Positions 27 to 32,508 of a DNA stretch of 64,000 nt are shown one piece after another. Source of the stretch: Patescibacteria group bacterium. Lineage in GTDB: Bacteria; Patescibacteriota; Minisyncoccia; 2-02-FULL-40-12. Position 1 is the stretch's first letter. Each line of letters begins with the position of its first letter. The stretch lies in contig JBBTXZ010000003.1 of assembly GCA_038062015.1 (NCBI GenBank), forward strand, positions 7,857 through 71,856, written 5' to 3'. Both the position numbers and the translations under genes were made by a program. Below the pieces are notes generated by a model. The model was given only the letters and a program-made list of their open reading frames with translations, made no database searches and was not told the DNA's origin.

Positions 27-1805
27 ATGATTAACTATGGTGTCAACTGCGGTCCTGCCCCAACACCTACCCCTAGTCCTTCTCCTACTCCTTCACCAAC
101 ACCCACGCCAACTCCAACCCCTACCTCAAGTCCAACCCCTAGTCCTACCCCTTTTCCTACGCCAACACCTACTCCCACCCCAACCCCAACACCTTTACCT
201 ATCTCAGTAAGCCTAATTGCCAATCCGCCGGTAATCAGAGAGGGGTCAAGCTCAATACTAAGCTGGGTATCTTCAAATGCTAATTCTTGTATTGCTATTG
301 GCGATGGCTGGTTTGGGGTTAGGCCGGTTTCTGGAAATGAAGTTGTGTCGCCAAACCAAACAACTATTTACCGGATAAACTGCACTAATTCGTTTGGTTC
401 TTCAGCCACAGCTCAAACCGTAGTTACGGTTATCAGGGATAATTTAGTCATTGTCGGGCCGACTCTTACTTTAATTGCCAATCCGTCAACAATCAGGCGG
501 AACGAATTATCTATTCTTACTTGGAATACCACAAATGCCACTTCCTGCACTGCTCAAGGCGATGGCTGGTTTGGGGTTAGAAATATTTCCGGCAATGAGA
601 CGGTAGCTTTGAATCAAACCACTACTTTCAGAATGACTTGTTCTAATTCAGCCAGTTCGGCTTCAGCCCAGACGACTGTCAATGTGATAGACGACGGCGG
701 GGGCTTGCCCGGCGTTGATATTACCGCTAACCCAATTAGCATAAACCAAGGGGCAAGCAGCGTTTTAATCTGGAGTTCGGTTAATGCCTCTTCCTGTTTT
801 GCTTCAAATAACTGGTCAGGCTCTAAATCAATTTCAGGCAGCGAAACTGTTACGCCTGCATTTACCGCTACCTATACTATTACTTGCTCTAACAGCCGGG
901 GTTCGGCCTCTGACAGCGTTACAGTGTTTGTTACGTCAACTCCAATAATTGCGCCTCAATCCTTTACGGTTGCCTGTGTTGCTAGTCCATTTGTCGTTTC
1001 AATTGGTCAGGAAACTACTTTAGCTGCCGGCCAAACCGGTGGGATTGAACCAGTAAATTTTGTTTGGGGCGGAATAGTTTCCGGAACCGGAAAAGTGATT
1101 AGACGGGCGATGCATCTTCCAGGCGTTCATACAGTCACAATTACTGCTACGGATGCAACTGGAAGAGTAGCTCGCGGAAGTTGTTTGGTTGACCCGCCAG
1201 CTAAAGCCGCTTCAAATGGCAGCTCCTCAAATAGTAATTCGCTGATTCAAGGAATTAAAAAAGTATTCAGCGGCGAAAAATCTTCAAAGATTAAAACTCC
1301 GACAGGTTTATCTCCCAATGAAAAAGAATACTCAAGTTCAACTTCTTCTGTTAAACTTTCTTGGGATTCAGTTAAAGGAATAAATAATTATGCAGTAAGG
1401 GTTGATTTTACTGGTTCTGAACTTAGAGATTCGAGAAATAACTGTCCGGACAGCCCTCATTATGTCTGTATCAACGGTTTGACTGAAAACAAAATTTCAA
1501 TTGCGGTTAAACCAAGCCAGAAATACAGCTGGTGGGTTCATGCGGTTGATTCTTCGGACAACATAAGCGAACCGGCCTCGGCTTGGTTTACGGTTGAAGC
1601 TAAAGAAACCGGATCAAAAGACAGTTCCTTGGGCAACATTTTCAGCAGCGCCGGAAACAGCATATTTGTTTCGGGATTGGCTGCATTGCTTTTCGTCTTA
1701 GGATATCTATTGGGCAAAAGAAAAAATAGCAGGAGAACAGAATCATTTAATCAATTCAGAATACCGCCTTTGGTTCCGCCGAGCCCGCCCTCTTCAAAAC
1801 AATAA
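27..1805 (+). CDS. Surface/cell-envelope protein: PT-rich linker, three ~95-aa Ig-like repeats, FN3-like region, C-terminal TM anchor. May be 5'-partial, since the frame is open to the window start.
   Basis: N-terminal (TP/SP)n low-complexity run. Three repeats of the pattern [27 protein letters not shown] (near-identical copies). C-terminal hydrophobic stretch followed by KRKNSRR. The mirror-frame ORF 35..223 is an artefact. Confidence 0.6.
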
Positions 1806-1981: not shown

Positions 1982-2293
1982 ATGAATTTAGCAGTCATCA
2001 AAACCGGCGGGAAACAATACATTGTTTCCGAGGGCCAAAAATTAAAGATTGAAAAATTAAACCAAAACGAAGGCGACGAATTTGAGTTTGATAAAGTTTT
2101 GCTTTTTGCCAACGGAGAGGAGATAAAAATCGGCCAGCCCTATATTGATGGGGTGAAAATTAAGGCTAAGGTTTTAAAGCAGGGCAGGGGAGAGAAGAAG
2201 ATTGTTTTCAGATACAAGAACAAAACCCGCTATAAAAAGAAAAAGGGGCATCGCCAGCCCTTCACCGAAGTTGAGATTTTAAGTATTTCGTAG
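1982..2293 (+). CDS. rplU: 50S ribosomal protein L21
   Basis: MNLAVIKTGGKQYIVSEGQKLKIEKL matches the L21 N-terminal consensus. Confidence 0.9.
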   Translation: MNLAVIKTGGKQYIVSEGQKLKIEKLNQNEGDEFEFDKVLLFANGEEIKIGQPYIDGVKIKAKVLKQGRGEKKIVFRYKNKTRYKKKKGHRQPFTEVEILSIS

Positions 2294-2312
2294 TTTGCGA
2301 AAAGTTGCTCTC

Positions 2313-2390
2313 GGCACAGTCGATTTCTTCTCTTGAGACACTTCTTGGAAATGGCGCGCTACTTTCTATAATTCTTTACGCCCTCTGATT
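2313..2390 (+). repeat. Half copy (copy 5) of the stop-codon-adjacent structured element family. Begins 20 nt after the rplU stop, in sense orientation.
   Basis: GGCACAGTCGATTTCTTCTCTTGAGACACTTCTTGGAAATGGCGCGC is a near-exact reverse complement of the right arm of copy 1 (3408-3454). Confidence 0.65.
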
Positions 2391-2435
2391 TTAAATACCT
2401 TAGGAAACCCTTGAAAAATGTGGGTTTTTGAGGGA

Positions 2436-2464
2436 TTGACAAATAGTTTATTAGGGTGTATAAT
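2436..2464 (+). promoter_or_regulatory. Sigma70-like promoter for the GC-rich ORF at 2619
   Basis: TTGACA, 17-nt spacer, TATAAT (perfect consensus hexamers). Confidence 0.5.
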
Positions 2465-2618
2465 TAAGATATAATTAAACGGCACCTTAATATATGATAT
2501 CTGCGGTAGCAAAGAGTTCTTAGGCATATTCAATTAAAACTAAAAGTCAGGATTCTTTGTTGTCGCAGATATGGAAAGAGTCAAAAAGATTGGGCATTTT
2601 GCGCAAAAGGAGGGAGTG

Positions 2619-3116
2619 ATGAAGAGAGAAACCTTGTATTTGCTAGCGGCCGTTTTCTTGGCAGCAAGTGTTGGTGCAGGTGTTGGTTTTCTATATCCTT
2701 TGATTCTTCCACCTCCGTCTCAGTCTGTAGAAGAGACATACGCTTCAACGGTCGAGTTCGAGGGTCTAAAGAGAGACGTTTCTAATCTCTACGATCGGAT
2801 CAGCGAGCTTGAAAAGGAAATTGAAACAAATCCTGATTTCTTTATCCGGCGGATGGATCGGGATCTGGATTTGCTCGAAAAAGGGCAAAATCCACACGGC
2901 AGTTTCTCGGACTACTTTGTTCCGAATGCCATGGCGGCCTTGAAAGCCGGAGCTGCGAAGAAAGAAGTGTTAACGAGGCTTGAACGAGTAGTTGCTCTGG
3001 CCGAGAAAAAGGTCTACTTGAGTAGTTACGTCGGTCAGCTTGTCCGGGAGGGCGGGATCGAAGCCGTACGCTCTTACATAGAGGGTGCGACGGGCTTACG
3101 TCTTTCCCGTCCATAG
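2619..3116 (+). CDS. Hypothetical membrane-anchored coiled-coil protein in a GC-rich island. The ORF track starts at 2571; the SD-supported start is the Met at 2619.
   Basis: AAGGAGG sits 5 nt before the ATG at 2619. N-terminal TM helix. About 48% GC against a background of about 35%. Followed by a strong intrinsic terminator. Confidence 0.55.
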   Translation: MKRETLYLLAAVFLAASVGAGVGFLYPLILPPPSQSVEETYASTVEFEGLKRDVSNLYDRISELEKEIETNPDFFIRRMDRDLDLLEKGQNPHGSFSDYFVPNAMAALKAGAAKKEVLTRLERVVALAEKKVYLSSYVGQLVREGGIEAVRSYIEGATGLRLSRP

Positions 3117-3133
3117 TTATGTTCATTTTCGTC

Positions 3134-3190
3134 CCCGCAGGAGCAATTCATCGGTTATACCGGAAACGCTCCTGCGGGGCGTTTTTTTGT
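3134..3190 (+). terminator. Rho-independent terminator
   Basis: CCCCGCAGGAGC ... GCTCCTGCGGGG 12-bp stem followed by TTTTTTTGTTT. Confidence 0.75.
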
Positions 3191-3241
3191 TTAGTATGAC
3201 GAGACCTTGCCGAGATGGAATCTTCTAATAAAGTATTGGGA

Positions 3242-3454
3242 GGGCATGACTGATTTCTGAACCTGAGGGTGTCTTGAGAAATGGCCGCTATCTTTACGCA
3301 GTCCCCATGCGAGTTCCCACAGGGACGAGCTGGGATGTTCTGACAAATTGCCGTTAACAAATCTATGGTGGAGGTATCCTGATTTGTCGGCAATTCAAGT
3401 AAAGTGGCGTGCCATTTCCAAGAAGTGTCTCAAGAGAAGAAATCAGTCATGCCC
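3242..3454 (-). repeat. Structured intergenic element, copy 1 (ends 3 nt before the dnaB stop codon, sense to dnaB)
   Basis: Closing stem GGGCATGACTGATTTCT / AGAAATCAGTCATGCCC. Conserved core TTTCTGAAC ... AATTGCCG-hairpin-CGGCAATT ... CTCAAGAGAAGAAA shared with copies 2 and 3. Confidence 0.75.
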
Positions 3455-3457
3455 GAG

Positions 3458-4804
3458 CTATATATTCTTCGCCAAATTCTTAAAACTCACTTCTTCTTCA
3501 TCGAAATAAAGCTCAACCGCACCGGTGGGTCCGTTGCGGTGTTTGGCAATAATAATTTCGGCGATATTTTTTCTGTCCGAATCATGGTGCCTTACTTTAT
3601 CTTCCCGATGGATGAACATTACTAAATCAGCGGCCTGTTCAATCCCGCCTGATTCTCTTAAATCCGAAAGCCGAGGTCTCTGGTCTGGCCTTGCTTCAAC
3701 TGCCCGGGATAACTGCGAAACGGCGATAATCGGGATATTCAGCTCCCGGGCCAAAGCTTTCAGGGAATTAGCCACGTCCGTCACCTGCTGGACATAACCT
3801 TCAATGTCGCTTCTGGGCTGGACTAACTGTAAGTAATCAATCACTAAAAGCCCGAGTTCGTTTTTGGCTTTTAACCGTCTGGCCATGGCTCTGATCTGTA
3901 AAACCGTGGGCGAAGGCGCGTCATCTATAAAGATAGAAACTTTTGATAAGCTATCCAAAGCCAGAGAAATTTTCGAAAAATCATTGAAGTCGCCCGAGCT
4001 GGTCAAGTGGCCAGTTCTTAATTTCCAAAGGCTCACCCCGGCTTCGGCTGATAAAATTCTATCTATCACCTGGTCTTTGGACATTTCCAGACTAAATAGT
4101 CCAACGCCGGCATTTTCTTTTTTGGCGATATTCCTAACCATATCCAAAGCCAAAGATGTTTTTCCAAGCGAGGGCCTTGCTCCAAGAATGATCAAATCCG
4201 AACGTTGAAGCCCAGCCAGTATATTATCCAAATCCACAAAGCCGGTTGAAAGGCCTCGCAAGGCGCCGTCCCCCCGATGAAGCCTTTCCAGCCGTTCAAA
4301 AGCTTCGTGGAGCTCCTCTTTCAAAGCTGTAAATTCCTGAGTTAAGGAGCGTTGGGAAACAGAGAAAAGATTTTGTTCAGCCTGATCCAGAATTTTTTCA
4401 ATACTTTCGTCTTCCTGATGGCCGAGGGCCGTAATTTTGTGGGCCGAATCTATCAAGTCCCGCAAAATTTTCTTGCGCCGGATTATTTTTCCATAATTTA
4501 ATATGTGGGCTGAAGTCGGCGTGGCGCTTAGAAGAGAAGTAAGGTAAGACGCTCCGCCGGCATTTTCAAGCTCGTCGCCTTCTTCAAGCTTGTTTGAAAC
4601 AGTCAAAATATCTATAGGTTCGTTTTTTTCCAAAAGGCTGACCATTGCTTTGAAAATCAGGTGGTTTTGGCGGGCGTAAAAATCATCGGGCCTTAAAATA
4701 TCAATTATTTTTTCAATTGAGCCTTTATCAATTAAAATAGAGCCCAAAACAGATTTTTCGGCTTCAAGGTTTTGGGGCGGAAGCTTGTCGGGAAGATTAG
4801 CCAT
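3458..4804 (-). CDS. dnaB: Replicative DNA helicase DnaB
   Basis: N-terminal LPPQNLEAEKSVLGSIL. Walker A GARPSLGKTSLAL. RecA-like C-terminal domain. Confidence 0.9.
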   Translation of the reverse strand: MANLPDKLPPQNLEAEKSVLGSILIDKGSIEKIIDILRPDDFYARQNHLIFKAMVSLLEKNEPIDILTVSNKLEEGDELENAGGASYLTSLLSATPTSAHILNYGKIIRRKKILRDLIDSAHKITALGHQEDESIEKILDQAEQNLFSVSQRSLTQEFTALKEELHEAFERLERLHRGDGALRGLSTGFVDLDNILAGLQRSDLIILGARPSLGKTSLALDMVRNIAKKENAGVGLFSLEMSKDQVIDRILSAEAGVSLWKLRTGHLTSSGDFNDFSKISLALDSLSKVSIFIDDAPSPTVLQIRAMARRLKAKNELGLLVIDYLQLVQPRSDIEGYVQQVTDVANSLKALARELNIPIIAVSQLSRAVEARPDQRPRLSDLRESGGIEQAADLVMFIHREDKVRHHDSDRKNIAEIIIAKHRNGPTGAVELYFDEEEVSFKNLAKNI

Positions 4805-4876
4805 GGAGGTATGATAAATGTCTAATTTTAATGAGACAAGGGATAATCTGTGGAGATAACTTATCTTTTTTTACTT

Positions 4877-6388: not shown

Positions 6389-6928
6389 TTAGTCAGCGCA
6401 GTAACAACATGACTGGTTGTTCGTTGTTGTCTTCCAGAACAAGCTGTCGGGCGGACCGAAGTACTGCGTGTACCTCGCTATGGTGCCGCTGAGATAATCA
6501 GGCATCAGTGCTATGTTTTCTTCTTCGCTGACAGTGGGTCCGTGATGGATGAACTGTCCGCTCGCGACTTCTGAACAGAACTTGTGGTAGTTTCGTGTGT
6601 TCAGCACGGCCATGTGCCAGAAATCGTCGACATCCTTGGACATCGGAAGGCACTGATCTGGATGCATGATGCGAAGGAACAAGTATTTCTTGAACTCTTG
6701 ATCCATCGCTACAGCTACATCTGGTTCGTAGCCCAGTCGGTTGATGACCAGAAGTCTTTCTCTGGAGAAGTCGAATTCACACACTCTTTTGAAGAGAATG
6801 CGAGCCGCCTCTGGCGCACCTGGCCTCAATTTAGAAAACAACGAGTTACTCCTCGAGTCGACGGGTAACTCCCTTACAATGCAGCTACTGTCATGACTCA
6901 ACCTCCTAAAGAACTGGTTTTGCAACAA
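6389..6928 (-). CDS. Hypothetical protein, GC-rich island, DUF1399/GRDP-like motif. TTG start.
   Basis: Pattern KKYLFL...DVDDFWHMAVL...Y..FC......G.FIHH resembles the DUF1399 core (W-H..L..Y..C..HH/HDD). About 50% GC. Confidence 0.4.
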   Translation of the reverse strand: MLQNQFFRRLSHDSSCIVRELPVDSRSNSLFSKLRPGAPEAARILFKRVCEFDFSRERLLVINRLGYEPDVAVAMDQEFKKYLFLRIMHPDQCLPMSKDVDDFWHMAVLNTRNYHKFCSEVASGQFIHHGPTVSEEENIALMPDYLSGTIARYTQYFGPPDSLFWKTTTNNQSCCYCAD

Positions 6929-10091: not shown

Positions 10092-10155
10092 GAATGAATC
10101 GAATACGCCCTCACGGGCTCCTTTTTATATTAAAACTTCATCCCAAATTCCGCCG

Positions 10156-10184
10156 TTGACATAACTCAAAATAAGGCATAATAT
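10156..10184 (+). promoter_or_regulatory. Sigma70-like promoter for the GC-rich small-gene pair
   Basis: TTGACA, 17-nt spacer, TAATAT. GGAGG SD before the ATG at 10211. Confidence 0.5.
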
Positions 10185-10210: not shown

Positions 10211-10420
10211 ATGAATATTAACAGTCCGGGAGACGCTAATGAAAAGAATCCAGTACATTGTTATGGGTGTGATGAAATTGTAATTGCGGCTAGAGAACAC
10301 CACAAAGAGAAACACTTCAGAACCACACACAAGTGTCCGAAGTGCGGTTATAGAGGAAGTCTCTTGACCATAAACGGAATACCCCAATTGAGGCATCCTG
10401 GCGAGATACCTGGAGCATAG
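10211..10420 (+). CDS. Small zinc-ribbon protein (CxxC...CxxC), GC-rich island
   Basis: HCYGCDE ... CPKCGY. Strong promoter and SD. Confidence 0.5.
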   Translation: MNINSPGDANEKNPVHCYGCDEIVIAAREHHKEKHFRTTHKCPKCGYRGSLLTINGIPQLRHPGEIPGA

Positions 10421-10452: not shown

Positions 10453-10740
10453 ATGACAGAACAGACAGCGAAGCAACGGCGTCCTTTTCACGAATCCATC
10501 GTCGATGCAATCCGTCGTGCCTCATACAGCGATATGAGGTGTCTAGGAAAACTCATCCAGGAGACCAAGATCCCAAAGGGTCACGACGCAATAATCGCCG
10601 CCTGGAATGATCGAAATGAGGAACTGTCTCGCGAGATGCGCGAGGCCGGTGATGTGTATGGCGATCTTTTCGAACAGAAACAGGAAGCTGAAGAAAAGGA
10701 AAGGGCGAAGAAACAGCAGAATGAAGTCGCCACCACATAA
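10453..10740 (+). CDS. Hypothetical small acidic protein, GC-rich island
   Basis: AGGAGG SD 6 nt upstream. Followed by a terminator. Confidence 0.5.
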   Translation: MTEQTAKQRRPFHESIVDAIRRASYSDMRCLGKLIQETKIPKGHDAIIAAWNDRNEELSREMREAGDVYGDLFEQKQEAEEKERAKKQQNEVATT

Positions 10741-10809: not shown

Positions 10810-10862
10810 GGGTTTCGCTGGCGAGTTCTGACGAGGCGAAATCTTCTAATGATTTAGGTTGT

Positions 10863-11065
10863 GCGGGGCATGCCCGTTTTCTGAACTACAAGGGAGCAGG
10901 AACAAATAACCGAAAGAGGGTGAATAATTTGCCGGTTACAACATAGGGTAGGGGATTCCCTATTTGTCGGCAAATTTTAATGAGGTCAATTTCTTAATTG
11001 CGAATGGTACTCTCTGAGGGTTATTTGTCTGCGACGCTTGAGAGAAGAAAACGGGCATGCCCCGC
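10863..11065 (-). repeat. Structured intergenic element, copy 2 (ends 2 nt before the def stop codon)
   Basis: Closing stem GCGGGGCATGCCCGTTTTCT / AGAAAACGGGCATGCCCCGC. Shared motifs TTTCTGAAC, AATTTGCCG...CGGCAAATT (covarying with copy 1 AATTGCCG/CGGCAATT), CTTGAGAGAAGAAA. Extended left homology TGACGAG...AATCTTCTAATGA from 10829. Confidence 0.75.
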
Positions 11066-11066
11066 G

Positions 11067-11774
11067 CTATTTATCCGTAATCATAACCCCTTGCAGATGG
11101 TCGTATTCGTGCTGCAAGACCCGGGCCAGCATGCCTTTGGCGATAAACTTGTATTTCTTTTCGTTCTCATCCACTGATTTAACCTTCACCTTTTTCGGCC
11201 TTTTGATTTTCAACCATGTCTCCGGAATGCTCAAACAACCCTCTTCAAGCTCTTCAGAATCTTTTGAGTATGGCTTTACTTCCGAATTTATGTAGACGCT
11301 CGGCGCGTTGTGTTCCTTAGCCAATTCTTCATCAATCACAAAAAGGGCCATATCCAAACCGACCTGGTTCGCCGCTAAACCAATGCCATTGGCTTCTTTC
11401 ATCGTTTTTTTCATCTTTAAAATAACCTTTTTCAGTGAAGGCGTTATTAAACCAATTATTTTTAGTTTTTGGGACAGAATTTCAGCCGGTTTTTTGACAA
11501 TTTCCATCTTATTTGTCGATTCGTAAACGAAAAGTTTCCCCGGGGTTTTTACATTTTTGGACTGTTTTATTTTTGAAAATATCCGGTAGGCCGGTCTAAG
11601 CCCTATATTTTTAATTATCCCCAGATACATCGCGAATTTTTTGGATTCCCCGGCGTATTCTGATATTTCTTTGGCCAAGGCGTGGATCGGACCATGAATC
11701 CCGCGCTCCGGCTTTTTCTTCTTTATTTTAGCGAATTCTTTTCCGATTTTAGTCAAACCGGCCGATATTCTCAT
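11067..11774 (-). CDS. def: Peptide deformylase, with an ~89-aa N-terminal extension or a mis-set start (internal Met at 11507)
   Basis: GIGLAANQ, EGCLS and QHEYDHLQG, the three PDF motifs. Confidence 0.8.
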   Translation of the reverse strand: MRISAGLTKIGKEFAKIKKKKPERGIHGPIHALAKEISEYAGESKKFAMYLGIIKNIGLRPAYRIFSKIKQSKNVKTPGKLFVYESTNKMEIVKKPAEILSQKLKIIGLITPSLKKVILKMKKTMKEANGIGLAANQVGLDMALFVIDEELAKEHNAPSVYINSEVKPYSKDSEELEEGCLSIPETWLKIKRPKKVKVKSVDENEKKYKFIAKGMLARVLQHEYDHLQGVMITDK

Positions 11775-14599: not shown

Positions 14600-15547
14600 T
14601 TATCCGTTTTTAATTCCGTGAAACTTACGATGGATCTCTCGAAGTCGCGGTTTGGTAATATGAGTATATATCTGAGTAGTGACTATACTTTTATGGCCCA
14701 AAAATTCTTGGACAGTTCTTAAATCAACTCCTTTCATTAATAAATCCGTTGCAAAACTGTGACGCAGTGTATGAACTGTAGTGATTATCGGCAGGCCGGC
14801 TAAAATCGCGCATCCCTTGACCGTTCTTTCAATGCTTTTAATGCTCAGCTGGCTGCCCGGAGATTTACCCCTATAGTTTATAAATAAGGCCTTATTATTG
14901 TCTTTTCTTGTTTCAAGGTACTTTCTTAGCCAATTAATTGCCCTTTCCGATAAATAAACCGTTCGTGGCCGGTTGCCTTTGCCGATAATTGATATCTCTA
15001 AATCTTCAGTCGTGTTTTTAATTTTTATTTGCTCGCGATTCAAACTTGCTAATTCAGCGACTCTTAAACCGGTGGAGAAGAGGATTTCCAATATAGACCT
15101 GTCTCTTAATCCAATGACTCTGGAGGTGTCCGGAACGCTGAATAGTTTTTCAAGCTGTTCTAAGTTTAAAAAATGTAGAATTTTTTCTCCTTTTTCTTTT
15201 GGCAGTTTTATTTTTTCGGGGGGCAGAGAAGTGATGTCTTTTTCAGCGAAATAGGTCAGTAAAGATCTTAAAGCGATTAGATAGTAGTTCTGAGTCGTTT
15301 TTTTCAAAGGCCTGCCGTCTCTGGATATGTGATGCCGTGAAAGGTAAAGCTTATATTGCCAAATATGATCAGGGGAGAGATCAGCTGGTTTTACATTATC
15401 TAATTTATTTTTTTTAAGCCAATTTAAAAAAATTTTTAAAAATCTGGCATAGTTCTCCTGTGATTTGCTGGATAATCCTTTTTCTATTTCAAGCCAGTCC
15501 AAAAAATCTGTTAGGTGCTGGGGGAGTGGTTTTTGATTTATATTCAT
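14600..15547 (-). CDS. xerC: Tyrosine recombinase XerC/XerD family
   Basis: C-terminal HTLRHSFATDLLMKGVDLRTVQEFLGHKSIVTTQIYTH with the catalytic R..H..R..Y. Confidence 0.85.
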   Translation of the reverse strand: MNINQKPLPQHLTDFLDWLEIEKGLSSKSQENYARFLKIFLNWLKKNKLDNVKPADLSPDHIWQYKLYLSRHHISRDGRPLKKTTQNYYLIALRSLLTYFAEKDITSLPPEKIKLPKEKGEKILHFLNLEQLEKLFSVPDTSRVIGLRDRSILEILFSTGLRVAELASLNREQIKIKNTTEDLEISIIGKGNRPRTVYLSERAINWLRKYLETRKDNNKALFINYRGKSPGSQLSIKSIERTVKGCAILAGLPIITTVHTLRHSFATDLLMKGVDLRTVQEFLGHKSIVTTQIYTHITKPRLREIHRKFHGIKNG

Positions 15548-17792: not shown

Positions 17793-18026
17793 ATGGCTGA
17801 CCTCAAGTTTCCAAATTTAGACAAAACAAAAAAAACCACGCTGTATATTCAGGCCAATATCGACCTAAATATTGAAATAATAGCCAACTTTGGGAGAAGG
17901 CCAAAAAAAGATATCATAGAGGAGGCTCTGATTTGGTATCTGAAGGAAAAAATAGGTATTCCTGATCCAACTCAACCGCCAACTCTTTCTTGGGCACCAA
18001 AATCTCCACAAGCCATCAAAGCGTAA
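17793..18026 (+). CDS. Small hypothetical protein (possible ribbon-helix-helix fold)
   Basis: 77-aa ORF converging on the structured element. Weak RHH-like pattern only. Confidence 0.3.
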   Translation: MADLKFPNLDKTKKTTLYIQANIDLNIEIIANFGRRPKKDIIEEALIWYLKEKIGIPDPTQPPTLSWAPKSPQAIKA

Positions 18027-18100
18027 GCAATGGTGGCTTCGTTGTTTTTAGCGAACTATAGCCCGTTTGGCGATGCCATATATTAAAAATTTGTAAAAAG

Positions 18101-18273
18101 CGCGAGGCATATGTCTCTCGGGAAGTTCTGGAGACCGAGTAGCAAGGTAAGTCAAGATTGTTTGAACCCCGAGCTTGTCGAGGGGAAGTCTTGACTTTAC
18201 GAGGTCGTAAGTACAGCGAGCAAAACTCGCTGGGTTTTGCGAGCGGTTCCCGAAGACATATGCCGAGAGCAGC
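18101..18273 (-). repeat. Structured inverted-repeat element, copy 4 (diverged). Ends 3 nt before the ctpA stop codon.
   Basis: Outer stem GAGGCATATGTCTCTCGGGAA / TTCCCGAAGACATATGCCGAG. Nested 9-bp hairpin AAGTCAAGA/TCTTGACTT. Shares the 5' motif GCTCTCGGCAyAkTC with copy 5 after the stop codon. Confidence 0.55.
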
Positions 18274-18276
18274 TTT

Positions 18277-19506
18277 TTATAAATTTTTAATCACTTCAAT
18301 CGCCTTTTCCAACTGCGGATCCAGGTCACTTTTGATGTCTTCTTCGGTTCTCTCAACCTTAATGTCCGGCTCGATCCCTTCATCAGAAATTGACCGGCCT
18401 TTTGGCGTCAACCACTTTGCCACTGTAACCTTTAAAGCCGTTTTAAATCTTAATTCTTCAATCTGCTGAACCGAACCTTTGCCAAAAGTCTTTTCCCCTA
18501 TTAATTTAACCCCTTTATTATCGTGTAAAGCGCCAGCCACAATTTCCGATGCCGAAGCTGAACCTTTATTTATCAATATCACGACTTTCACATCCTTCAA
18601 AAAGCCATTTGGTTTAGCTTTCAACTCATCTTTTTGGCCGATGCCCCGCTGAGCGGGGCCGTTGCCGAAATCCTCAATCACCACCACTTGGCCCGGCTCC
18701 AGGAAATAGCTTGAAATATCAATAGCTAAATCAAGAAGCCCGCCCGGATTGTTCCTTAAATCCAAAATCAATTTTTTGGCGGCGCCCTGTTTTTTTAATT
18801 CTTTAAGCGCTTGGTCAAACTCATTTTTAGCTATCTGATTAAAGCTGAAAAGCTGGATATGGCCTATGTCAGGCTCTATTTTTAACCATTTGACCGTCGG
18901 GATTTTTATCCTGTCTCTGGTTAGTTCAAATTCTTTAGTTTCTTCTTGGCTGTCTTTTTTTCTAGAAATAGTTAAAATAACTTTAGTTCCCCGTCGCCCC
19001 CTTATTTTCGAAACTGCTTCTTCTAAAGTGATTCCGGCGGTTGAATCGCTGTCAATTTTTAAAATTTTATCGCCGGCAATTATTCCGGCCCGGTCAGCCG
19101 GCGTATCCTTTAAAGGCGCAATAACTGTCAATACATCTTCCCTCATTCCAATTTCAATTCCTATTCCGGCAAATTCCCCTTTTATGTCTTCCTGCAGTCT
19201 CTTGGATTCTTTAGCTTCTAAAAATACGGTAAAAGGATCGCCGACGCTTTTTACCATTCCCTCAATTGCTCCAAAAATCATTTCTTGAGTGTTTAAATCT
19301 GAACGGCCGACGTATCTTTCGTGGATTAAATTCCAAGCATCCCAAAATAAACTAAAATCAACCGATTCGGGCTGGCCGAGATCTCTATTGATCAACTCTC
19401 TCAACCCGCCGCCAAAAGGCTCCCGGCTTTTTTGAAACTCAATCCCGCCGAAAAAACCGGCTACCAGAGAAATAATTATGATTGTAACGAGAGTTTTTCT
19501 GTTCAT
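18277..19506 (-). CDS. ctpA: Carboxyl-terminal processing protease (S41)
   Basis: PDZ domain and S41 catalytic region (GSASASEI..., K dyad). N-terminal TM anchor. Confidence 0.8.
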   Translation of the reverse strand: MNRKTLVTIIIISLVAGFFGGIEFQKSREPFGGGLRELINRDLGQPESVDFSLFWDAWNLIHERYVGRSDLNTQEMIFGAIEGMVKSVGDPFTVFLEAKESKRLQEDIKGEFAGIGIEIGMREDVLTVIAPLKDTPADRAGIIAGDKILKIDSDSTAGITLEEAVSKIRGRRGTKVILTISRKKDSQEETKEFELTRDRIKIPTVKWLKIEPDIGHIQLFSFNQIAKNEFDQALKELKKQGAAKKLILDLRNNPGGLLDLAIDISSYFLEPGQVVVIEDFGNGPAQRGIGQKDELKAKPNGFLKDVKVVILINKGSASASEIVAGALHDNKGVKLIGEKTFGKGSVQQIEELRFKTALKVTVAKWLTPKGRSISDEGIEPDIKVERTEEDIKSDLDPQLEKAIEVIKNL

Positions 19507-22792: not shown

Positions 22793-23404
22793 TCAAAATT
22801 TTTTGAGCTTTTTTCTTAGATCAACTATTCCACTACCAGTTTTAACCCAATTACCTTTTTCGTCTTTCTTTATACCTTCCCAAGACATCGCCCTGCCTTT
22901 ACCATCGGGATAATTAACATCTTCCTGGCCCCAGATCCATTTATAGGCTTTCAATATAACTTCGGGTTCTTCACCATTTATATCTTTCCATTTAACATCT
23001 CTGAGAACGTCATCCGGTTCCTTTCCATTATAGACTTTTTCCAAAGCGTTTATAATTTCTATTGTTCCTTTAGGATCTTTATGGCTCTTTTCTTCTAAAT
23101 CTTCAAATATATTTTTATGAGAAATGAGCCATAATGTTTTATCAGTAGGATTAAATATCCAAACCATAAAATCTTCTCGTTTTATGGTGCCAAAAGTAAA
23201 TTTACCGCCCGGTTTTGTTATTACTATTTTCCTCCCATCTTTTAATGATTCGACTTCGTATCCCCTATAAGCGATACTCTCCAACTCTTTTCTAAATCTG
23301 TCTTTAGGAGCATTCTTAATTTTAAGATCGGTGAGATTAATTTCGTGAGCATAAATATTTATTTTTGCTTTTCTTTTTGTATTTACTTTGTCAACTTTAC
23401 TCAT
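22793..23404 (-). CDS. Hypothetical protein. Candidate cognate restriction endonuclease, overlapping the methyltransferase stop by 4 nt.
   Basis: Operon position directly downstream of a beta-class MTase. Possible PD...ExK-like NPTD(x14)EDLEEK. No recognisable family. Confidence 0.3.
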   Translation of the reverse strand: MSKVDKVNTKRKAKINIYAHEINLTDLKIKNAPKDRFRKELESIAYRGYEVESLKDGRKIVITKPGGKFTFGTIKREDFMVWIFNPTDKTLWLISHKNIFEDLEEKSHKDPKGTIEIINALEKVYNGKEPDDVLRDVKWKDINGEEPEVILKAYKWIWGQEDVNYPDGKGRAMSWEGIKKDEKGNWVKTGSGIVDLRKKLKKF

Positions 23405-24246
23405 ATCGAAGAAAATACAGAATTAGATATAGATGCCTTAAGACGTCTAACAGATAAATCTAAATATTCTTTTTCAGCATCAATGCCTATGAATTTTCTC
23501 CCGTTTTTTATCGCGGCCAATCCAGTTGTTGAACTGCCGGTAAAAGGGTCTAATACTATATCGCTCTTATTAGTGCTGGCTAAAATGATTCTTTCTAATA
23601 AAGCTACTGGTTTTTGAGTCGGGTGCTTGCCGAATTTTTTTTCTTCTTTTTGAGGCGTGATAAATGACCAAATTGTTCTCATTTGTTTATCAGAAACTTT
23701 AATTAAATCTTCCGGCCATTTTCCGGTTCTCATTAAGTTATAATTAAAAGTATGTTTGGCTTTCTTGTCTTTTCTTGCCCAAAGTAATGTTTCGTGGCTT
23801 GCAGTAAAATAACGGCCACTAAGATTCGGTGATGCATTAGGTTTAAACCAGGCAATATCATTGAGTATATGATAGCCGAGTGACTGCAAAGCATAACCGC
23901 ACTGATAAATAGAGTGGTAGGTGCCGCTAATCCAAATAGTTCCGCGAGGTTTTAATACTCTTTTACACTCGCTAATCCAATTTATATGAAACTGGAGATC
24001 TTCTTCAAAGCCATTGCTTTTATCCCAGTCGCCTTTATTCACACTCACTCTTTTACCGGCATGAACGGTAAATCCTCCATTTGATAAGTTATAAGGAGGG
24101 TCGGCAAAAATCATATCTATAGAGTTTTCCGGTAGTTGTTGGAGTAGTTTAAGAGAATCACCGTGATACAAAACAAAATTATCAGCTGTAAAATAAGGCT
24201 TTTCTTTTACCTTGGATAAAATTTTACCGTTAGTCCCGTCCGCCAT
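23401..24246 (-). CDS. DNA methyltransferase, beta-class (N6-adenine or N4-cytosine)
   Basis: Motif IV DPPY (FADPPYNL) lies N-terminal to motif I VLDPFTGSSTTG. Confidence 0.85.
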   Translation of the reverse strand: MADGTNGKILSKVKEKPYFTADNFVLYHGDSLKLLQQLPENSIDMIFADPPYNLSNGGFTVHAGKRVSVNKGDWDKSNGFEEDLQFHINWISECKRVLKPRGTIWISGTYHSIYQCGYALQSLGYHILNDIAWFKPNASPNLSGRYFTASHETLLWARKDKKAKHTFNYNLMRTGKWPEDLIKVSDKQMRTIWSFITPQKEEKKFGKHPTQKPVALLERIILASTNKSDIVLDPFTGSSTTGLAAIKNGRKFIGIDAEKEYLDLSVRRLKASISNSVFSSI

Positions 24247-28317: not shown

Positions 28318-29814
28318 TTATTCAATTATTATTGCTATATTTATTCTATTAGCGTCTTTCGGAATCTTCCTTAGCCAAAAAGGAGGAAAAATCCGGGCTG
28401 ATTCTATTTCGTTCAAACCGCTGAAATAAGAATCAGCTTCACTTATCCTTTTACCGGCAATATCCGAAATTATCTTCTTTTTGTCTATATTTTGGATAGT
28501 CTGGCCGGAAGAAACCAGTTTAAAAGATAATTCCCTTTTTTCTTTGTTCAATTTCGACTGATCATAATTTATTTTAATACCGCTTGCCACTAATAAATTC
28601 TGGGAATTTTTAACATACTGGGAAATAAAATCAACAATATCGCTCTCTTTAAAAACTACCAGGCTCGCTTTAATTTTAAAATCAACCCTAAATTCTTTAG
28701 TTAGATCGCCGGCGTTATTGGAATCACCGGTTTTTTCTATTTCCATGTTCAAAACTTCATCCAAAATTTTAAAATTACCAAGTAAAGCAAGCTCTGCCTT
28801 TATTTGGCTGACTCCTTCTTCTTTTATAATTTCTTCGGCTTTTTCTAAATCCTCTTTGCTTACGAAACTGGACTGGCCGACAAACCCTCCGGAAAGTTTC
28901 TCAAATGATTTTGCGTAAAAACCCTGATATTTTGGATTACCCAGAAACCCAGGTATCCTGAAATCGGAAGGCTCAATATTGTATTCTTCGCCAGCCCGAT
29001 CAGCGACGATTTCAACCTCTATCTCGCCGGGCTTAAACTCACTGCCGATTATCTTACCGGGCACAGTTACGGCCTTTGGGATTCTAAAAGTCAGCCCTTC
29101 GGCTGTTTGAAGCCTTGTCGTGGCCACTAAAATCTGGGGCGAAGCGCTGAAATTATTGTAAATGAAGGCCCTGCCTCTGGCTTTCTGAAAAACATCTTTC
29201 TCGGCGCTTGAAGCAAATGTTTTAGAAATTAATTTTTCAACTTCAATCCATTGGCCCGGCACCATTCCGTAGATTTCATCGTTTTTAGTGATATCAGTTG
29301 AAACGACCACTGGTAAATTAATCGAAAAATCGACTTTACGGGGAATTATTTTTATATTCACTTCGTTTAAAGAAGAAAGGGCGATGAAAATAAATAAACC
29401 GATGGCAGAACCGAGAAGAGCCAGGATGAATTTTTTAGAATCTTTTTGCTTTAGCCTTGCCAGACGGGGCGGGACGCTTAGCGTCCCAAAGGGCCCCGCT
29501 GAACGGGCCACCGGTGTTTTTTCTGAAAACTCTGAATAGAAAGAAAGCAGGTCTTTGTCTTTCTTGGTGTTATTACCTTTAGCGGCAGTCCCGCTCGGCG
29601 GGGCGGCGGCTTTAGCATTTTGCCCGGAAGAAATTATTGAAACTTCTTTTTTTAACTTGTCGAAATGGGCTTTCAACTTTTCCAATTTGTTCTTGTTTTT
29701 AAAGACCGGGTTTGATTTTGGGACAACTAAAATTAAGCTGTCAGATCCGGATTCTTCGACTGCCTCCAAAATGTCTTCGAAATTGTCGCCCGAAGCGATG
29801 TTAATGATTTTCAT
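28318..29814 (-). CDS. Hypothetical single-pass membrane protein inserted upstream of infA in the ribosomal cluster
   Basis: Cytoplasmic N-domain, TM helix LALLGSAIGLFIFIAL, large extracytoplasmic domain. No family recognised. Confidence 0.4.
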   Translation of the reverse strand: MKIINIASGDNFEDILEAVEESGSDSLILVVPKSNPVFKNKNKLEKLKAHFDKLKKEVSIISSGQNAKAAAPPSGTAAKGNNTKKDKDLLSFYSEFSEKTPVARSAGPFGTLSVPPRLARLKQKDSKKFILALLGSAIGLFIFIALSSLNEVNIKIIPRKVDFSINLPVVVSTDITKNDEIYGMVPGQWIEVEKLISKTFASSAEKDVFQKARGRAFIYNNFSASPQILVATTRLQTAEGLTFRIPKAVTVPGKIIGSEFKPGEIEVEIVADRAGEEYNIEPSDFRIPGFLGNPKYQGFYAKSFEKLSGGFVGQSSFVSKEDLEKAEEIIKEEGVSQIKAELALLGNFKILDEVLNMEIEKTGDSNNAGDLTKEFRVDFKIKASLVVFKESDIVDFISQYVKNSQNLLVASGIKINYDQSKLNKEKRELSFKLVSSGQTIQNIDKKKIISDIAGKRISEADSYFSGLNEIESARIFPPFWLRKIPKDANRINIAIIIE

Positions 29815-31100: not shown

Positions 31101-31190
31101 TATTAATTGAAATAGAAACCTTCCCTCGGTTTCTCTATATTATATAACAAATGGAAAGCTACTTTCGCGTTTTTCGCTTTAAAATAATAC

Positions 31191-31382
31191 AGAAAGCCGT
31201 GAGCCTGTATCAATTTCTGAGTCGGGCAGTGTTCTTGAGAAATGGCCGCTACCTTTATGAAGAATTGCCGAATGACAATTGCTGGTGGAGGATCCAGAAT
31301 TGTCGGCAATTCGAATAAAGTGGCGCGCCATTTCCAAGAAGGGCTCCCAAACGAAGAAATTGATATAGGCGATAAGGCTTTC
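31191..31382 (-). repeat. Structured intergenic element, copy 3 (ends 3 nt before the mnmA stop codon). Deletion variant lacking about 43 nt of the copy-1 core.
   Basis: Closing stems GAAAGCC/GGCTTTC and GCCTGTATCAATTTCT/AGAAATTGATATAGGC. Near-identical core to copy 1 (TCTTGAGAAATGGCCGCTA..., TGGTGGAGG, TTGTCGGCAATTC.A.TAAAGTGGCG.GCCATTTCCAAGAAG). Confidence 0.75.
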
Positions 31383-32488: not shown

Positions 32489-32508
32489 TAAAGTATATTG
32501 ACAACTTT

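What the first reader, a model, noticed from the sequence alone, without database searches (positions are those of the whole stretch)
2313..3454. Near-perfect 40-47 bp inverted repeats bracket a GC-rich cargo gene (composite-element-like architecture)
The half copy at 2313-2359 (GGCACAGTCGATTTCTTCTCTTGAGACACTTCTTGGAAATGGCGCGC) is an almost exact reverse complement of the right arm of copy 1 (3408-3454). These inverted repeats enclose, across about 1.1 kb, a consensus promoter (TTGACA-17-TATAAT), a strong-SD GC-rich ORF (2619-3116, about 48% GC against about 35% background), an intrinsic terminator, and the rest of the structured element. This looks like either a mobile unit carrying a foreign gene, or two independent insertions, one after rplU and one after dnaB. 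Copy 2 has the same local layout without the upstream inverted partner: a GC-rich small-gene pair with promoter and terminator, then TGACGAG...AATCTTCTAAT, then the element. The homology between copies 1 and 2 extends about 45 nt leftward of the closing stem, up to the cargo terminator. This suggests the cargo and the element may move or function together.
Basis: partly seen in the sequence, partly recalled or inferred. Interest (0 to 1): 0.65.

Follow-up and report, generated by a model that had tools for sequence, protein, structure and literature searches.

The report
Two hairpin repeats flank accessory gene
The inverted repeat is real, but it is made by two separate copies of an apparently undescribed, strongly conserved, roughly 200-base hairpin element that sits at gene ends in a small group of groundwater Patescibacteria, and the gene between the copies is an independently acquired orphan rather than the cargo of one transposon.

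Summary
Arms 2322-2365 and 3401-3444 are 44 nt long and 95% complementary. A perfect TTGACA-17-TATAAT promoter, a strong-SD ORF and a terminator lie between them.

The arms are not the ends of one mobile unit. The right arm belongs to a complete 225-nt rod-like hairpin (3236-3460). The left arm is a truncated 3' half of another copy on the minus strand (2296-2366). Two further full copies lie at 10860-11068 and 31197-31376.

A covariance model finds about 30 copies, all in a few related Patescibacteria MAGs. It finds none in Rfam, in viral contigs, or in the 46 pattern-hit loci from other phyla.

In most copies the 3' end abuts the end of a neighbouring gene. Here the two neighbours are the rplU stop and the dnaB stop, so two independent copies face each other.

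Four orthologous rplU-dnaB loci differ. One keeps the same right-hand rod with a different gene and a different left module. One keeps a rod of a different subtype next to dnaB, with another gene. Two have no rod next to dnaB, and their gaps are 140 and 347 nt.

The rod is 88.8% identical between orthologous loci, against 44% identity at dnaB four-fold sites. Its closing stem covaries, with 19 G.U against 1 A.C on the sense strand. This points to a functional, probably RNA-level, element.

What moves these elements and what they do remain inferred.

The parts
1982..2293 (+). rplU (ribosomal protein L21). It is convergent with dnaB, and its stop codon lies 3 nt from the tail of the truncated module.
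   Evidence: ORF. Pfam Ribosomal_L21p on the identical gene in L063.
2296..2366 (-). Truncated hairpin module: the 3' arm plus the 3' frame/tail (GAAGAAAT-CGACTGTG-CCGAGAG-CAACTTTTCGC on the minus strand). This is the left arm of the inverted repeat. Its 5' half is missing.
   Evidence: Covariance-model hit 2306-2406 (-), 25.5 bits. The alignment shows homology only from AAAGTAGCGCGCC to the tail. No partner for its closing-stem strand exists in the window.
2345..2372 (+). Promoter-like site TTGGAA-16-TATAAT. It is formed partly by the truncated arm and lies at the truncation breakpoint.
   Evidence: 10 of 12 matches. Consensus match only.
2436..2464 (+). Consensus sigma-70-type promoter TTGACA-17-TATAAT for the accessory gene.
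   Evidence: 12 of 12 matches.
2496..2573 (+). Long hairpin in the 5' UTR of the accessory gene.
   Evidence: Seen in the sequence. It gives spurious miRNA-like Rfam hits only because it is a hairpin.
2619..3116 (+). Accessory ('cargo') ORF of 165 aa with an N-terminal hydrophobic segment. Its homologs are lipoprotein-like orphans. GC 0.49.
   Evidence: no Pfam, PHROG or PADLOC family, and only 3 homologs at 45-60% identity.
3133..3192 (+). Intrinsic terminator of the accessory gene: the CCCCGCAGGAGC...GCTCCTGCGGGG stem followed by a T run.
   Evidence: (3162-3186 plus T run) and the sequence.
3198..3235 (+). Leader (TGACGAG..GGAATCTTCTAAT..), conserved upstream of cargo-linked rods.
   Evidence: the same leader occurs in 8 cargo-linked copies from about 5 genomes.
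3236..3460 (+). Complete rod-like hairpin module, copy 1. The closing stem pairs 3242-3258 with 3436-3452. The right arm of the inverted repeat is 3401-3444. The 3' end abuts the dnaB stop codon.
   Evidence: Covariance-model hit of 162.9 bits. Fold -108.2 kcal/mol, z -7.2. 88.8% identical to the orthologous copy in L054.
3458..4804 (-). dnaB (replicative helicase), convergent with rplU.
   Evidence: Pfam DnaB/DnaB_C on the identical gene.
10860..11068 (+). Copy 2, subtype B. It is preceded by a promoter (10156-10184), two small ORFs (10211-10420 and 10453-10740), a terminator and the leader. Its 3' end abuts the stop of the deformylase gene (11067-11774, -).
31197..31376 (+). Copy 3, subtype A, with no cargo. 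It lies between two minus-strand genes, and its 3' end is 8 nt from the stop of gene 31385-32593.
18098..18277 (+). Different structured module ('type C') inside the same kind of outer frame (AAAAGCGCGAGGCATATGTC...GACATATGCCGAGAGCAGCTTTT). It follows a small + strand ORF and abuts the stop of gene 18277-19506.
   Evidence: z -8.15, and about 81% identical copies in L031 and L054 (BLAST; aligned). No Rfam hit.

Best explanation
The inverted repeat is a by-product of two independent members of a dispersed family of framed, rod-like hairpin modules. These are 180-225 nt long and occur at about one per 15-20 kb in this genome.

Each module has four parts:
- a conserved 5' frame;
- a locus-specific closing stem;
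- a conserved, asymmetric interior;
- a conserved 3' frame.

Modules sit at the edges of the short non-essential spaces between housekeeping genes, and in most copies the 3' end is pressed against the neighbouring gene's end. rplU and dnaB converge, so one module on each gene end gives a head-to-head pair. The 165-aa gene between them is a separate, self-contained accessory cassette with its own promoter, structured 5' UTR, ORF and terminator. It occupies this turnover hot spot and has replaced the 5' half of the left module.

These steps are shown:
- family membership;
- truncation of the left copy;
- gene-end placement;
- independent turnover of modules and cargo at orthologous loci;
- strong purifying selection;
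- covariation biased towards the sense strand.

These steps are inferred. The modules act as RNA on the sense strand, co-directional with the cargo. The most likely role is in cis, as a giant 3' hairpin that ends or insulates transcription running out of the accessory islet towards the convergent essential gene, or that stabilises the transcript. The modules spread or exchange by nested insertion or replacement inside one another, in the manner of ERIC, REPIN or MITE repeats.
For: - **Inverted repeat and family.** Searches show the repeat and place both arms in one family.
- **Truncation.** The half copy has only the 3' arm plus tail, and its closing-stem strand has no partner.
- **Placement.** The module's 3' end lies -2 to +8 nt from the stop of a convergent gene in 9 of 18 full copies, and the downstream gene is convergent in 13 of 18. 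The half copy follows the same rule at rplU.
- **Orthologous loci, all with DnaB 85-86% identical.**
  - L054 has the same rod next to dnaB, but a 62-aa zinc-ribbon gene and a 'type D' module next to rplU.
  - L031 has a rod, a 103-aa ORF on the other strand and a tail remnant.
  - L070 has no rod by dnaB.
  - L071 has a 140-nt gap with only remnants.
- **Other presence/absence sites.** L031 has modules between cysS and dnaB where the window has 72 nt. L061 has a rod where the window has 22 nt.
- **Selection.** The rod is 88.8% identical between the window and L054, against 44% at dnaB four-fold sites.
- **Structure.**
  - 98% of closing-stem cells are paired, and 13 of 17 pairs change on both sides. 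None of 500 shuffles reach the observed values.
  - Subtype A has 51 consensus pairs, 19 of them compensatory.
- **Strand.**
  - There are 19 G.U against 1 A.C in the closing stem.
  - The sense strand folds better in 19 of 19 copies.
- **Cargo independence.**
  - Homologs of the 165-aa protein have their own promoter and terminator but no rod.
  - The 95-aa cargo of copy 2 recurs at def-fmt and at rplO-secY, followed by different module types or by none.
- **Nesting.** Modules sit inside the closing stems of other modules.
- **Reality of the layout.** The same arrangement appears in three independent assemblies.
Against: - No transcription data exist, and no conserved promoter was seen upstream of cargo-less rods.
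- Most rods lie antisense to the neighbouring housekeeping genes (10 against 3 in tandem-gene contexts). It is therefore unclear how the sense strand is expressed.
- The sequence conservation of the interior exceeds what a plain terminator needs.
- Head-to-head pairing of modules, with cargo in the middle, recurs in the window (three sites) and in L031, L054 and L043. That could mean the pair is itself a unit.
- No mobilising enzyme was identified. The ten ORFs I scanned in the window gave only a Xer-like tyrosine recombinase.
- Copies are related, so counts of G.U pairs and orientations are not fully independent.
Confidence: 0.6

Rival explanations
1. Composite or TIR-bounded mobile unit. The two inverted modules are the ends of one element, [module(-)] [cargo] [module(+)], which transposes as a whole and carries the accessory gene.
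For: - The arms are 44 nt long and 95% complementary.
- The same head-to-head layout, with + strand cargo in the middle, recurs at copy 2 (as a degenerate remnant read by eye), in L054 and in L043. It recurs without cargo in L031, L054 and L070.
- In several copies, though not at the dnaB end of this locus, the outer frames form short terminal inverted repeats (GCGAAAAGC...GCTTTTCGC).
- A short public contig (L066) is bounded by the two arms.
Against: - The closing-stem parts of the two arms differ, and the left copy is a truncated half.
- There is no target-site duplication.
- L054 shares the orthologous right module but not the cargo or the left module.
- The two modules of a pair are often of different types: C with rod, D with rod, B with A.
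- The cargo's homologs occur without modules.
- Four contigs that carry the gene (L063-L066) show it in the same orientation relative to the modules.
Confidence: 0.12
2. Cassette-capture system. The framed hairpins are recombination sites analogous to integron attC or VCR sites, acted on by a tyrosine recombinase. Small promoter-bearing genes are captured or exchanged at the 5' side of a resident hairpin.
For: - Unrelated small orphan ORFs always lie upstream of a module and are co-oriented with it. Homology among units begins at the terminator T run and leader.
- The cargo differs at orthologous sites while the module stays.
- The hairpins have conserved frames and variable stems, as attC sites do.
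- A Xer-like tyrosine recombinase is encoded at 14600-15547.
Against: - No attC signature (RYYYAAC...GTTRRRY) is evident by eye in the copies read; I ran no pattern search for it.
- The sites are dispersed singly next to housekeeping genes. They do not form an array next to an integrase and attI.
- The cargo genes carry their own promoters.
- The recombinase looks like ordinary XerC/D and is not adjacent to any module.
- Many rods have no cargo.
- At the def-fmt locus the cargo is conserved while the module changes.
Confidence: 0.13
3. Stand-alone trans-acting small RNA genes. Each rod is transcribed from its own promoter and processed at the closing stem, for example by RNase III. The conserved interior, with its CUGA / GAAGAAA internal loop and GGAGG apical loop, binds a protein or the ribosome. 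Multi-copy status would reflect dosage, and placement would be incidental.
For: - Strong purifying selection on the interior sequence.
- Conserved asymmetric internal loops, with about 250 non-complementary positions kept across copies.
- Sense-strand G.U bias.
- The closing stem varies freely but always pairs, like a processing stem.
Against: - No conserved promoter was found.
- Truncated, nested and remnant copies are common, which is typical of selfish repeats.
- There is no Rfam relative.
- The family is confined to a very narrow clade.
Confidence: 0.15

Closest known systems
ERIC / IRU elements of enterobacteria (127-bp imperfect palindromes)
   Same: Both are dispersed, intergenic, long imperfect palindromes. 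Both show presence/absence at orthologous intergenic sites and unusually high sequence conservation, consistent with RNA-level constraint. Orientation matters in both. (The ERIC properties are from my own knowledge; I did not check them in a paper.)
   Different: The rods are longer (180-225 nt). They have conserved outer frames and a locus-specific closing stem, they are nested inside one another, and they are often paired head-to-head around small genes. No TA target duplication was seen. There is no sequence similarity, and the host is a Patescibacteria clade.
REP / BIME / REPIN elements mobilised by RAYT transposases
   Same: Both are extragenic palindromes, often at the 3' ends of convergent genes. 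Both occur as inverted doublets and persist over long times at orthologous sites.
   Different: The REP unit is about 35 nt with a GTAG head, whereas these modules are about 200 nt with a complex interior. The ten window ORFs I scanned gave no RAYT (Y1 HUH) match, and the rest of the genome is unseen.
MITEs such as Neisseria Correia elements
   Same: Both are small, non-coding and multi-copy, with inverted ends. Both show nested and truncated copies and can create promoter-like sites at junctions.
   Different: No target-site duplication and no parent insertion sequence were found. Conservation is far above neutral, and covariation with G.U bias points to selection on RNA rather than on transposase-binding ends.
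Integron attC sites / Vibrio cholerae repeats with gene cassettes
   Same: Both are hairpin sites with conserved frames and variable stems, placed at the 3' side of small orphan ORFs. Cargo varies at a fixed site.
   Different: There is no R''/R' core, no array, and no intI or attI. The cargo genes have their own promoters, and the modules are dispersed at housekeeping gene ends.
TIGR stem-loop arrays (TIGR-Tas, PMC12045711)
   Same: Both are found in CPR bacteria. Both are hairpin units with variable palindromic stems flanking conserved short motifs.
   Different: TIGR units are tandem arrays next to a Tas (Nop-domain) gene, and they carry two unpaired 8-12-nt spacers in the loop. The rods are dispersed, almost fully paired, and have no adjacent Tas-like gene.

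Membership tests
Composite transposon / TIR-bounded transposon | Two matching terminal repeats that are the ends of one element | tested here: not met
   The inner 44 nt match at 95%. The outermost closing-stem parts differ, the left copy is a truncated half, and both arms belong to a multi-copy family.
Composite transposon / TIR-bounded transposon | Target-site duplication flanking the ends | tested here: not met
   The flanks are ...CGTAGTTT|GCGAAAAG and ...CCCGAG|CTATATAT, with no direct repeat. Both ends abut stop codons.
Composite transposon / TIR-bounded transposon | The bounded segment is present or absent as one block in related genomes, or occurs at other loci | tested here: not met
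   L054 keeps the right module with a different cargo and a different left module. L031, L070 and L071 show other combinations.
Composite transposon / TIR-bounded transposon | A transposase encoded inside the element or elsewhere | tested here: not met
   The only internal ORF is a 165-aa orphan with no Pfam, PHROG or PADLOC family. The ten other window ORFs I scanned gave no transposase. The rest of the genome was not examined.
MITE | Short non-coding multi-copy element with terminal inverted repeats | tested here: met
   There are about 30 copies of 180-225 nt. Outer frames GCGAAAAGC...GCTTTTCGC are present in many copies.
MITE | Target-site duplication and a related autonomous insertion sequence | tested here: not met
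   No duplication was seen at any inspected junction. No parent element was found in the window or loci.
REP/REPIN | Short (~35 nt) palindromic unit with a conserved 5' tetranucleotide, plus a RAYT gene flanked by units | tested here: not met
   The unit length and sequence are different. The ten window ORFs I scanned gave no Y1 transposase match.
Integron gene cassette / attC | R''(RYYYAAC) and R'(GTTRRRY) core sites at the hairpin base | not tested
   No pattern search for the core sites was run. By eye, the frames in the copies I read are GCAGGG / CCCGAGAG or GTGAGG / CGATTCAGG.
Integron gene cassette / attC | Array of co-oriented cassettes next to intI and attI | tested here: not met
   The modules are dispersed at 2.3, 3.2, 10.9, 18.1 and 31.2 kb next to housekeeping genes. 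The only tyrosine recombinase (14600-15547) is Xer-like and not adjacent to any module.
Any Rfam RNA family | Covariance-model match | tested here: not met
   Only two tRNAs pass the gathering score in the window. Nothing relevant appears at E <= 10 over 2250-3520 or 18050-18320.
TIGR stem-loop array | Tandem units with two unpaired spacers flanked by box C/D-like motifs, next to a Tas gene | tested here: not met
   The units are dispersed and almost fully paired. No adjacent Nop-domain gene was seen. The defining features were taken from PMC12045711.
Conserved structured RNA (generic) | Base pairs kept through compensatory changes beyond shuffled and slid controls | tested here: met
   97.8% of cells are paired, against 86.4% in shuffles and 25-44% in slid controls. 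16 of 28 pairs change on both sides, and none of 500 shuffles reach the observed values.
Conserved structured RNA (generic) | Evidence of transcription of the modelled strand | not testable with these tools
   No RNA-seq data were available. The only support is indirect: 19 G.U against 1 A.C in the closing stem.
Intrinsic (bidirectional) terminator | Stable hairpin followed by a U run (and preceded by an A run) at a gene's 3' end | tested here: inconclusive
   The position at gene ends is met. By eye, A and T runs flank the outermost stem in some copies (L036, L015, L014, type C) but not in others, including copy 1.

The most novel reading that the evidence does not exclude
The framed hairpins are a new kind of self-nesting mobile RNA/DNA module in Patescibacteria. 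A conserved frame plus a locus-specific stem acts as a docking hairpin. Into it, different structured cores (rod A/B, type C, type D) and small promoter-bearing gene cassettes are inserted or exchanged. This would give these tiny genomes insulated accessory-gene islets between essential genes. It would be functionally analogous to integrons or REPINs, but with its own, still unidentified, machinery.
Probability: 0.2. Interest if true: 0.8.

Novelty: new variant of a known kind. Interest (0 to 1): 0.5.

Why it matters
Patescibacteria have tiny, streamlined genomes in which non-coding DNA is scarce. Despite this, the clade keeps many copies of a 200-nt hairpin. By rough extrapolation from the window's density, that could be dozens per genome, although only 64 kb was seen. 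The hairpin evolves far more slowly than silent sites.

If the modules are RNA-level insulators, they show how accessory genes can be wedged, on the opposite strand, between essential genes without harming them. If they are recombination sites, they would be a new route of gene-cassette turnover in a phylum where mobile elements are poorly known.

For annotation, they also explain why assemblies of these genomes break at such sites.

Tried and rejected
- **Rfam.** The gathering-score search and two permissive searches gave no family.
- **Hammerhead idea.** CUGACGAG...GAAA in the leader suggested a hammerhead. I rejected it because there is no stem II and no Rfam hit.
- **Leader as promoter.** I rejected this because the spacing between the hexamer-like parts differs by about 11-12 nt between copies 1 and 2.
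- **TIGR-Tas stem arrays.** Rejected after reading the paper.
- **Retron ncRNA.** Rejected by eye: the genes flanking the copies are housekeeping genes and I saw no adjacent reverse transcriptase, and the element is multi-copy. I ran no RT-specific search.
- **Viral origin.** The pattern gave 6 hits in viral contigs, and none matched the model.
- **Chance hits in other phyla.** 46 pattern hits from other phyla gave no model match.
- **Cargo function.** Pfam, PHROGs and PADLOC found nothing for ten small proteins, apart from a weak Arc-like hit for the 77-aa ORF.
- **Literature.** Searches for Patescibacteria repeats or MITEs found no description.
- **Automatic frame detection.** A regex scan for framed hairpins and a motif scan for head-to-head partners were too strict or too noisy to use as statistics.
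- **Divergent promoter.** Spacers between head-to-head modules are 18-40 nt, too short for a divergent promoter pair.
Full report
**Observation**

The repeat is real. The repeat finder lists arms 2322-2365 and 3401-3444, 44 nt long, 95% complementary and 1035 nt apart. It is the longest inverted repeat in the 64-kb window.
- a 12/12 consensus promoter at 2436-2464;
- a Shine-Dalgarno sequence plus the ORF 2619-3116;
- a terminator at 3162-3186;
- a structured element that folds at -108 kcal/mol, z = -7.2.

Two details need correcting. Second, the GC contrast is modest: the ORF is 0.49, the window mean is 0.40 and dnaB next door is 0.45.

**What the arms are**

The right arm is the 3' arm of a complete rod-like hairpin, 3236-3460. 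The same kind of element occurs at 10860-11068 and 31197-31376. All three are on the + strand, with fold z-scores of -7 to -11.5.

The left arm is the 3' arm of a fourth copy on the minus strand, plus its 3' frame (GAAGAAAT-CGACTGTG-CCGAGAG-CAACTTTTCGC). Its 5' half is missing. Homology stops at 2366, and its closing-stem strand has no partner anywhere in the window.

No Rfam family matches.

**Distribution of the family**

I scanned one genome per species (185,579 genomes) with a pattern built from the conserved apical part. It returned 62 loci, 16 of them from five Patescibacteria MAGs. A covariance model built from 19 copies finds the following:
- about 30 copies in those 16 loci and in related loci fetched later, with up to three per 8 kb;
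- none in the other 46 loci;
- none in viral contigs;
- copies in only two of 80 metagenomic loci that encode DnaB relatives, and those two carry the closest DnaB sequences.

The window comes from a Hainich groundwater Patescibacteria MAG. Three independent assemblies show the same arrangement.

**Anatomy and conservation**

Each copy has these parts:
- a 5' frame (GCAGGG or GTGAGG);
- a closing stem of 17-22 bp that differs from copy to copy;
- the conserved junction ATTTCUGA / GAAGAAAU;
- a conserved, asymmetric interior of two main subtypes, ending in UUGCCG...GGUGGAGG...UGUCGGCAA;
- a 3' frame (CCCGAGAG or CGAUUCAGG).

In the 28-copy alignment, 97.8% of cells in the modelled pairs are standard pairs. 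The controls give 86% for shuffled and 25-44% for slid partners. In the closing stem, 13 of 17 pairs change on both sides. Subtype A alone has 51 consensus pairs, 19 of them compensatory.

The strands are not equivalent:
- The closing stem has 19 G.U against 1 A.C.
- Arm-against-arm comparison gives 64 G.U against 36 A.C.
- The sense strand folds more stably in 19 of 19 copies.

The copy next to dnaB is 88.8% identical to its ortholog in L054 and has the same closing stem, including one G.U. Over the same comparison, dnaB four-fold degenerate sites are 44% identical. The rod is therefore under strong purifying selection and is not decaying junk.

**Why the copies form an inverted repeat**

Across 18 full copies, the 3' end lies -2 to +8 nt from the stop codon of a convergent gene in nine cases, and the downstream gene is convergent in 13. 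In the window:
- copy 1 abuts the dnaB stop;
- copy 2 abuts the deformylase stop;
- copy 3 lies 8 nt from the stop of gene 31385-32593;
- the half copy, on the other strand, lies 3 nt from the rplU stop.

rplU and dnaB converge. This arrangement is kept in 49 of the 50 Patescibacteria loci that carry both genes, with 112-3795 nt between their 3' ends. One module on each gene end therefore yields an inverted pair.

**Test of the composite-element idea**

Four loci with DnaB 85-86% identical to the window's give four different states:
- **L054.** The same rod lies by dnaB, and the leader is shared. The gene is a 62-aa zinc-ribbon protein, and a different module ('type D') lies by rplU.
- **L031.** A rod of another subtype, a 103-aa ORF on the other strand, and a tail remnant by rplU.
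- **L070.** Type D lies by rplU, and only tail remnants lie by dnaB.
- **L071.** A 140-nt gap holding only short remnants.

The modules and the gene therefore turn over independently, and there is no target-site duplication. In 42 of the 50 loci a conserved ~200-aa gene lies between dnaB and rplU. The window's clade lacks it there, and the space has become a hot spot.

Two other sites show presence/absence. L031 has type C plus a rod between cysS and dnaB, where the window has 72 nt. L061 has a rod where the window has 22 nt.

**The cargo**

The 165-aa protein has no Pfam, PHROG or PADLOC family. It has only three homologs, at 45-60% identity, and they look like lipoproteins. Two of the three loci show their own consensus promoter and terminator. 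None of the three has a rod.

Eight cargo-linked rods from several genomes share a conserved stretch. It begins at the terminator's T run and continues into a leader (TTTTTCTTTTCGGGCTTCGCCGGCGAGTTCTGACGAGACGGAATCT). The ORFs upstream of it are unrelated small proteins, always co-oriented with the rod.

The 95-aa protein of copy 2 has 27 homologs. At the orthologous def-fmt site it is followed by:
- a type D module inside a rod-type closing stem (L156);
- a rod nested in the stem of another rod (L159);
- nothing (L158).

It also occurs between rplO and secY, followed by a subtype-B variant (L157). Cargo and module thus tend to sit together but vary independently.

**A wider pattern**

Other structured cores use the same frames. 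One is 'type C' at 18098-18277. It has z = -8.15, about 81% identical copies in two other genomes, and no Rfam hit. Another is 'type D'.

Modules are nested inside each other. They are also often arranged head-to-head, filling the whole space between two housekeeping genes, with any cargo in the middle on the strand opposite to the neighbours. In the window, 53 of 59 long ORFs are on the minus strand. The three cargo units and all three full rods are on the plus strand.

However, the two modules of a pair are usually of different types, and orthologous comparisons break the pair apart.

**Mechanism**

Shown:
- a conserved, strand-asymmetric structured element at gene ends;
- independent turnover of modules and cargo;
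- nesting and truncation.

Inferred:
- The modules act as RNA on the cargo-sense strand.
- The most plausible role is a very stable 3' hairpin. It would end or insulate transcription leaving an accessory islet before it runs antisense into the convergent essential gene, or it would stabilise the transcript.
- The modules spread or swap interiors by insertion into one another, in the way ERIC, REPIN or MITE repeats behave.

Points that weaken this:
- There are no expression data.
- No conserved promoter was found for cargo-less rods.
- The interior is more conserved in sequence than a terminator requires.
- No mobilising enzyme was found. Among the ten window ORFs I scanned, the only recombinase-like protein is a Xer-like tyrosine recombinase at 14600-15547.

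**Comparison with known systems**

The family behaves most like ERIC, REPIN or Correia-type intergenic hairpin repeats. In its association with small orphan genes it resembles integron attC/VCR sites. It fails the defining tests I ran for each:
- no target duplication and no parent insertion sequence;
- no RAYT among the ten window ORFs I scanned;
- no cassette array and no intI; attC core sites were not evident by eye, though I ran no pattern search for them;
- no TIGR-type spacers and no Tas gene.

Literature searches found no description. I therefore rate it a new variant of a known kind. The flagged inverted repeat itself is an ordinary consequence of two copies. The family behind it is the interesting part.

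Noticed in passing
window 18098-18277 (+); L031 3382-3561 (-); L054 5368-5550 (-): 'Type C' is a multi-branched structured element of about 180 nt inside the same outer frame as the rods. Copies are about 81% identical across three genomes, with a covarying outer stem and inner hairpin. The fold z-score is -8.15 and there is no Rfam match.
   Followed up: partly
window 17794-18027 (+): A 77-aa + strand ORF with its own terminator lies directly upstream of type C. It has a weak Arc-like (ribbon-helix-helix) repressor match (E 0.004). This is a third 'small ORF plus module' unit in the window.
   Followed up: partly
window 2496-2573 (+): A long hairpin sits in the 5' UTR of the 165-aa gene. By eye, the homolog in L069 also seems to have a structured 5' UTR. 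It may be a regulatory or processing element.
   Followed up: no
window 2345-2372 (+): A promoter-like TTGGAA-16-TATAAT has its -35 part inside the truncated module arm and its -10 part exactly at the truncation breakpoint.
   Followed up: no
window 10092-10125 (-) and about 31113-31178 (-): Read by eye only, with no tool test: degenerate 'solo frame' remnants of minus-strand modules. They lie head-to-head with copies 2 and 3 and abut the start codons of fmt and of gene 29811-31100.
   Followed up: partly
L156 2395-2695; L159 2395-2865: Nested modules. In L156 a rod-type closing stem encloses a complete type D element. In L159 a rod sits inside the stem of another rod.
   Followed up: partly
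L043 4112-4300; also L008 and L058: Truncated left-half modules end at the apical stem and abut or fuse with neighbouring genes. In L043 the module runs in frame into rplI, replacing its first ~23 codons, and by eye has a GGAGG about 9 nt before a TTG. This could be real, or it could be an assembly join at a repeat.
   Followed up: no
window 6389-6928 (-): A GC-rich (0.49) 179-aa orphan ORF between cysS and a membrane protein gene has no Pfam, PHROG or PADLOC family. It may be another accessory gene.
   Followed up: partly
window 27-1805 (+): A 592-aa protein has an N-terminal Pro-Thr-Ser-rich 12-nt tandem repeat region and repeated ~86-aa domains. It has no Pfam match and is probably a surface protein.
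   Followed up: no
window whole; about 12-16 kb: 53 of 59 long ORFs are on the minus strand. GC skew is negative on the + strand from 16 kb onward and positive at 12-16 kb. A DnaA-box-like TTATC(T)CCACA lies upstream of dnaB (about 4845-4860). Perfect TTATCCACA boxes follow rods in L048 and L023.
   Followed up: no
window 22793-24246 (-): An N6/N4 DNA methylase (23401-24246) overlaps a 203-aa orphan (22793-23404) by a few bases. This may be a restriction-modification pair.
   Followed up: no
L074-L149 (dnaB-rplU gaps): In 42 of the 50 loci with both dnaB and rplU, a conserved ~200-aa gene lies immediately downstream of dnaB, between dnaB and rplU. The window's clade lacks it at this site.
   Followed up: partly
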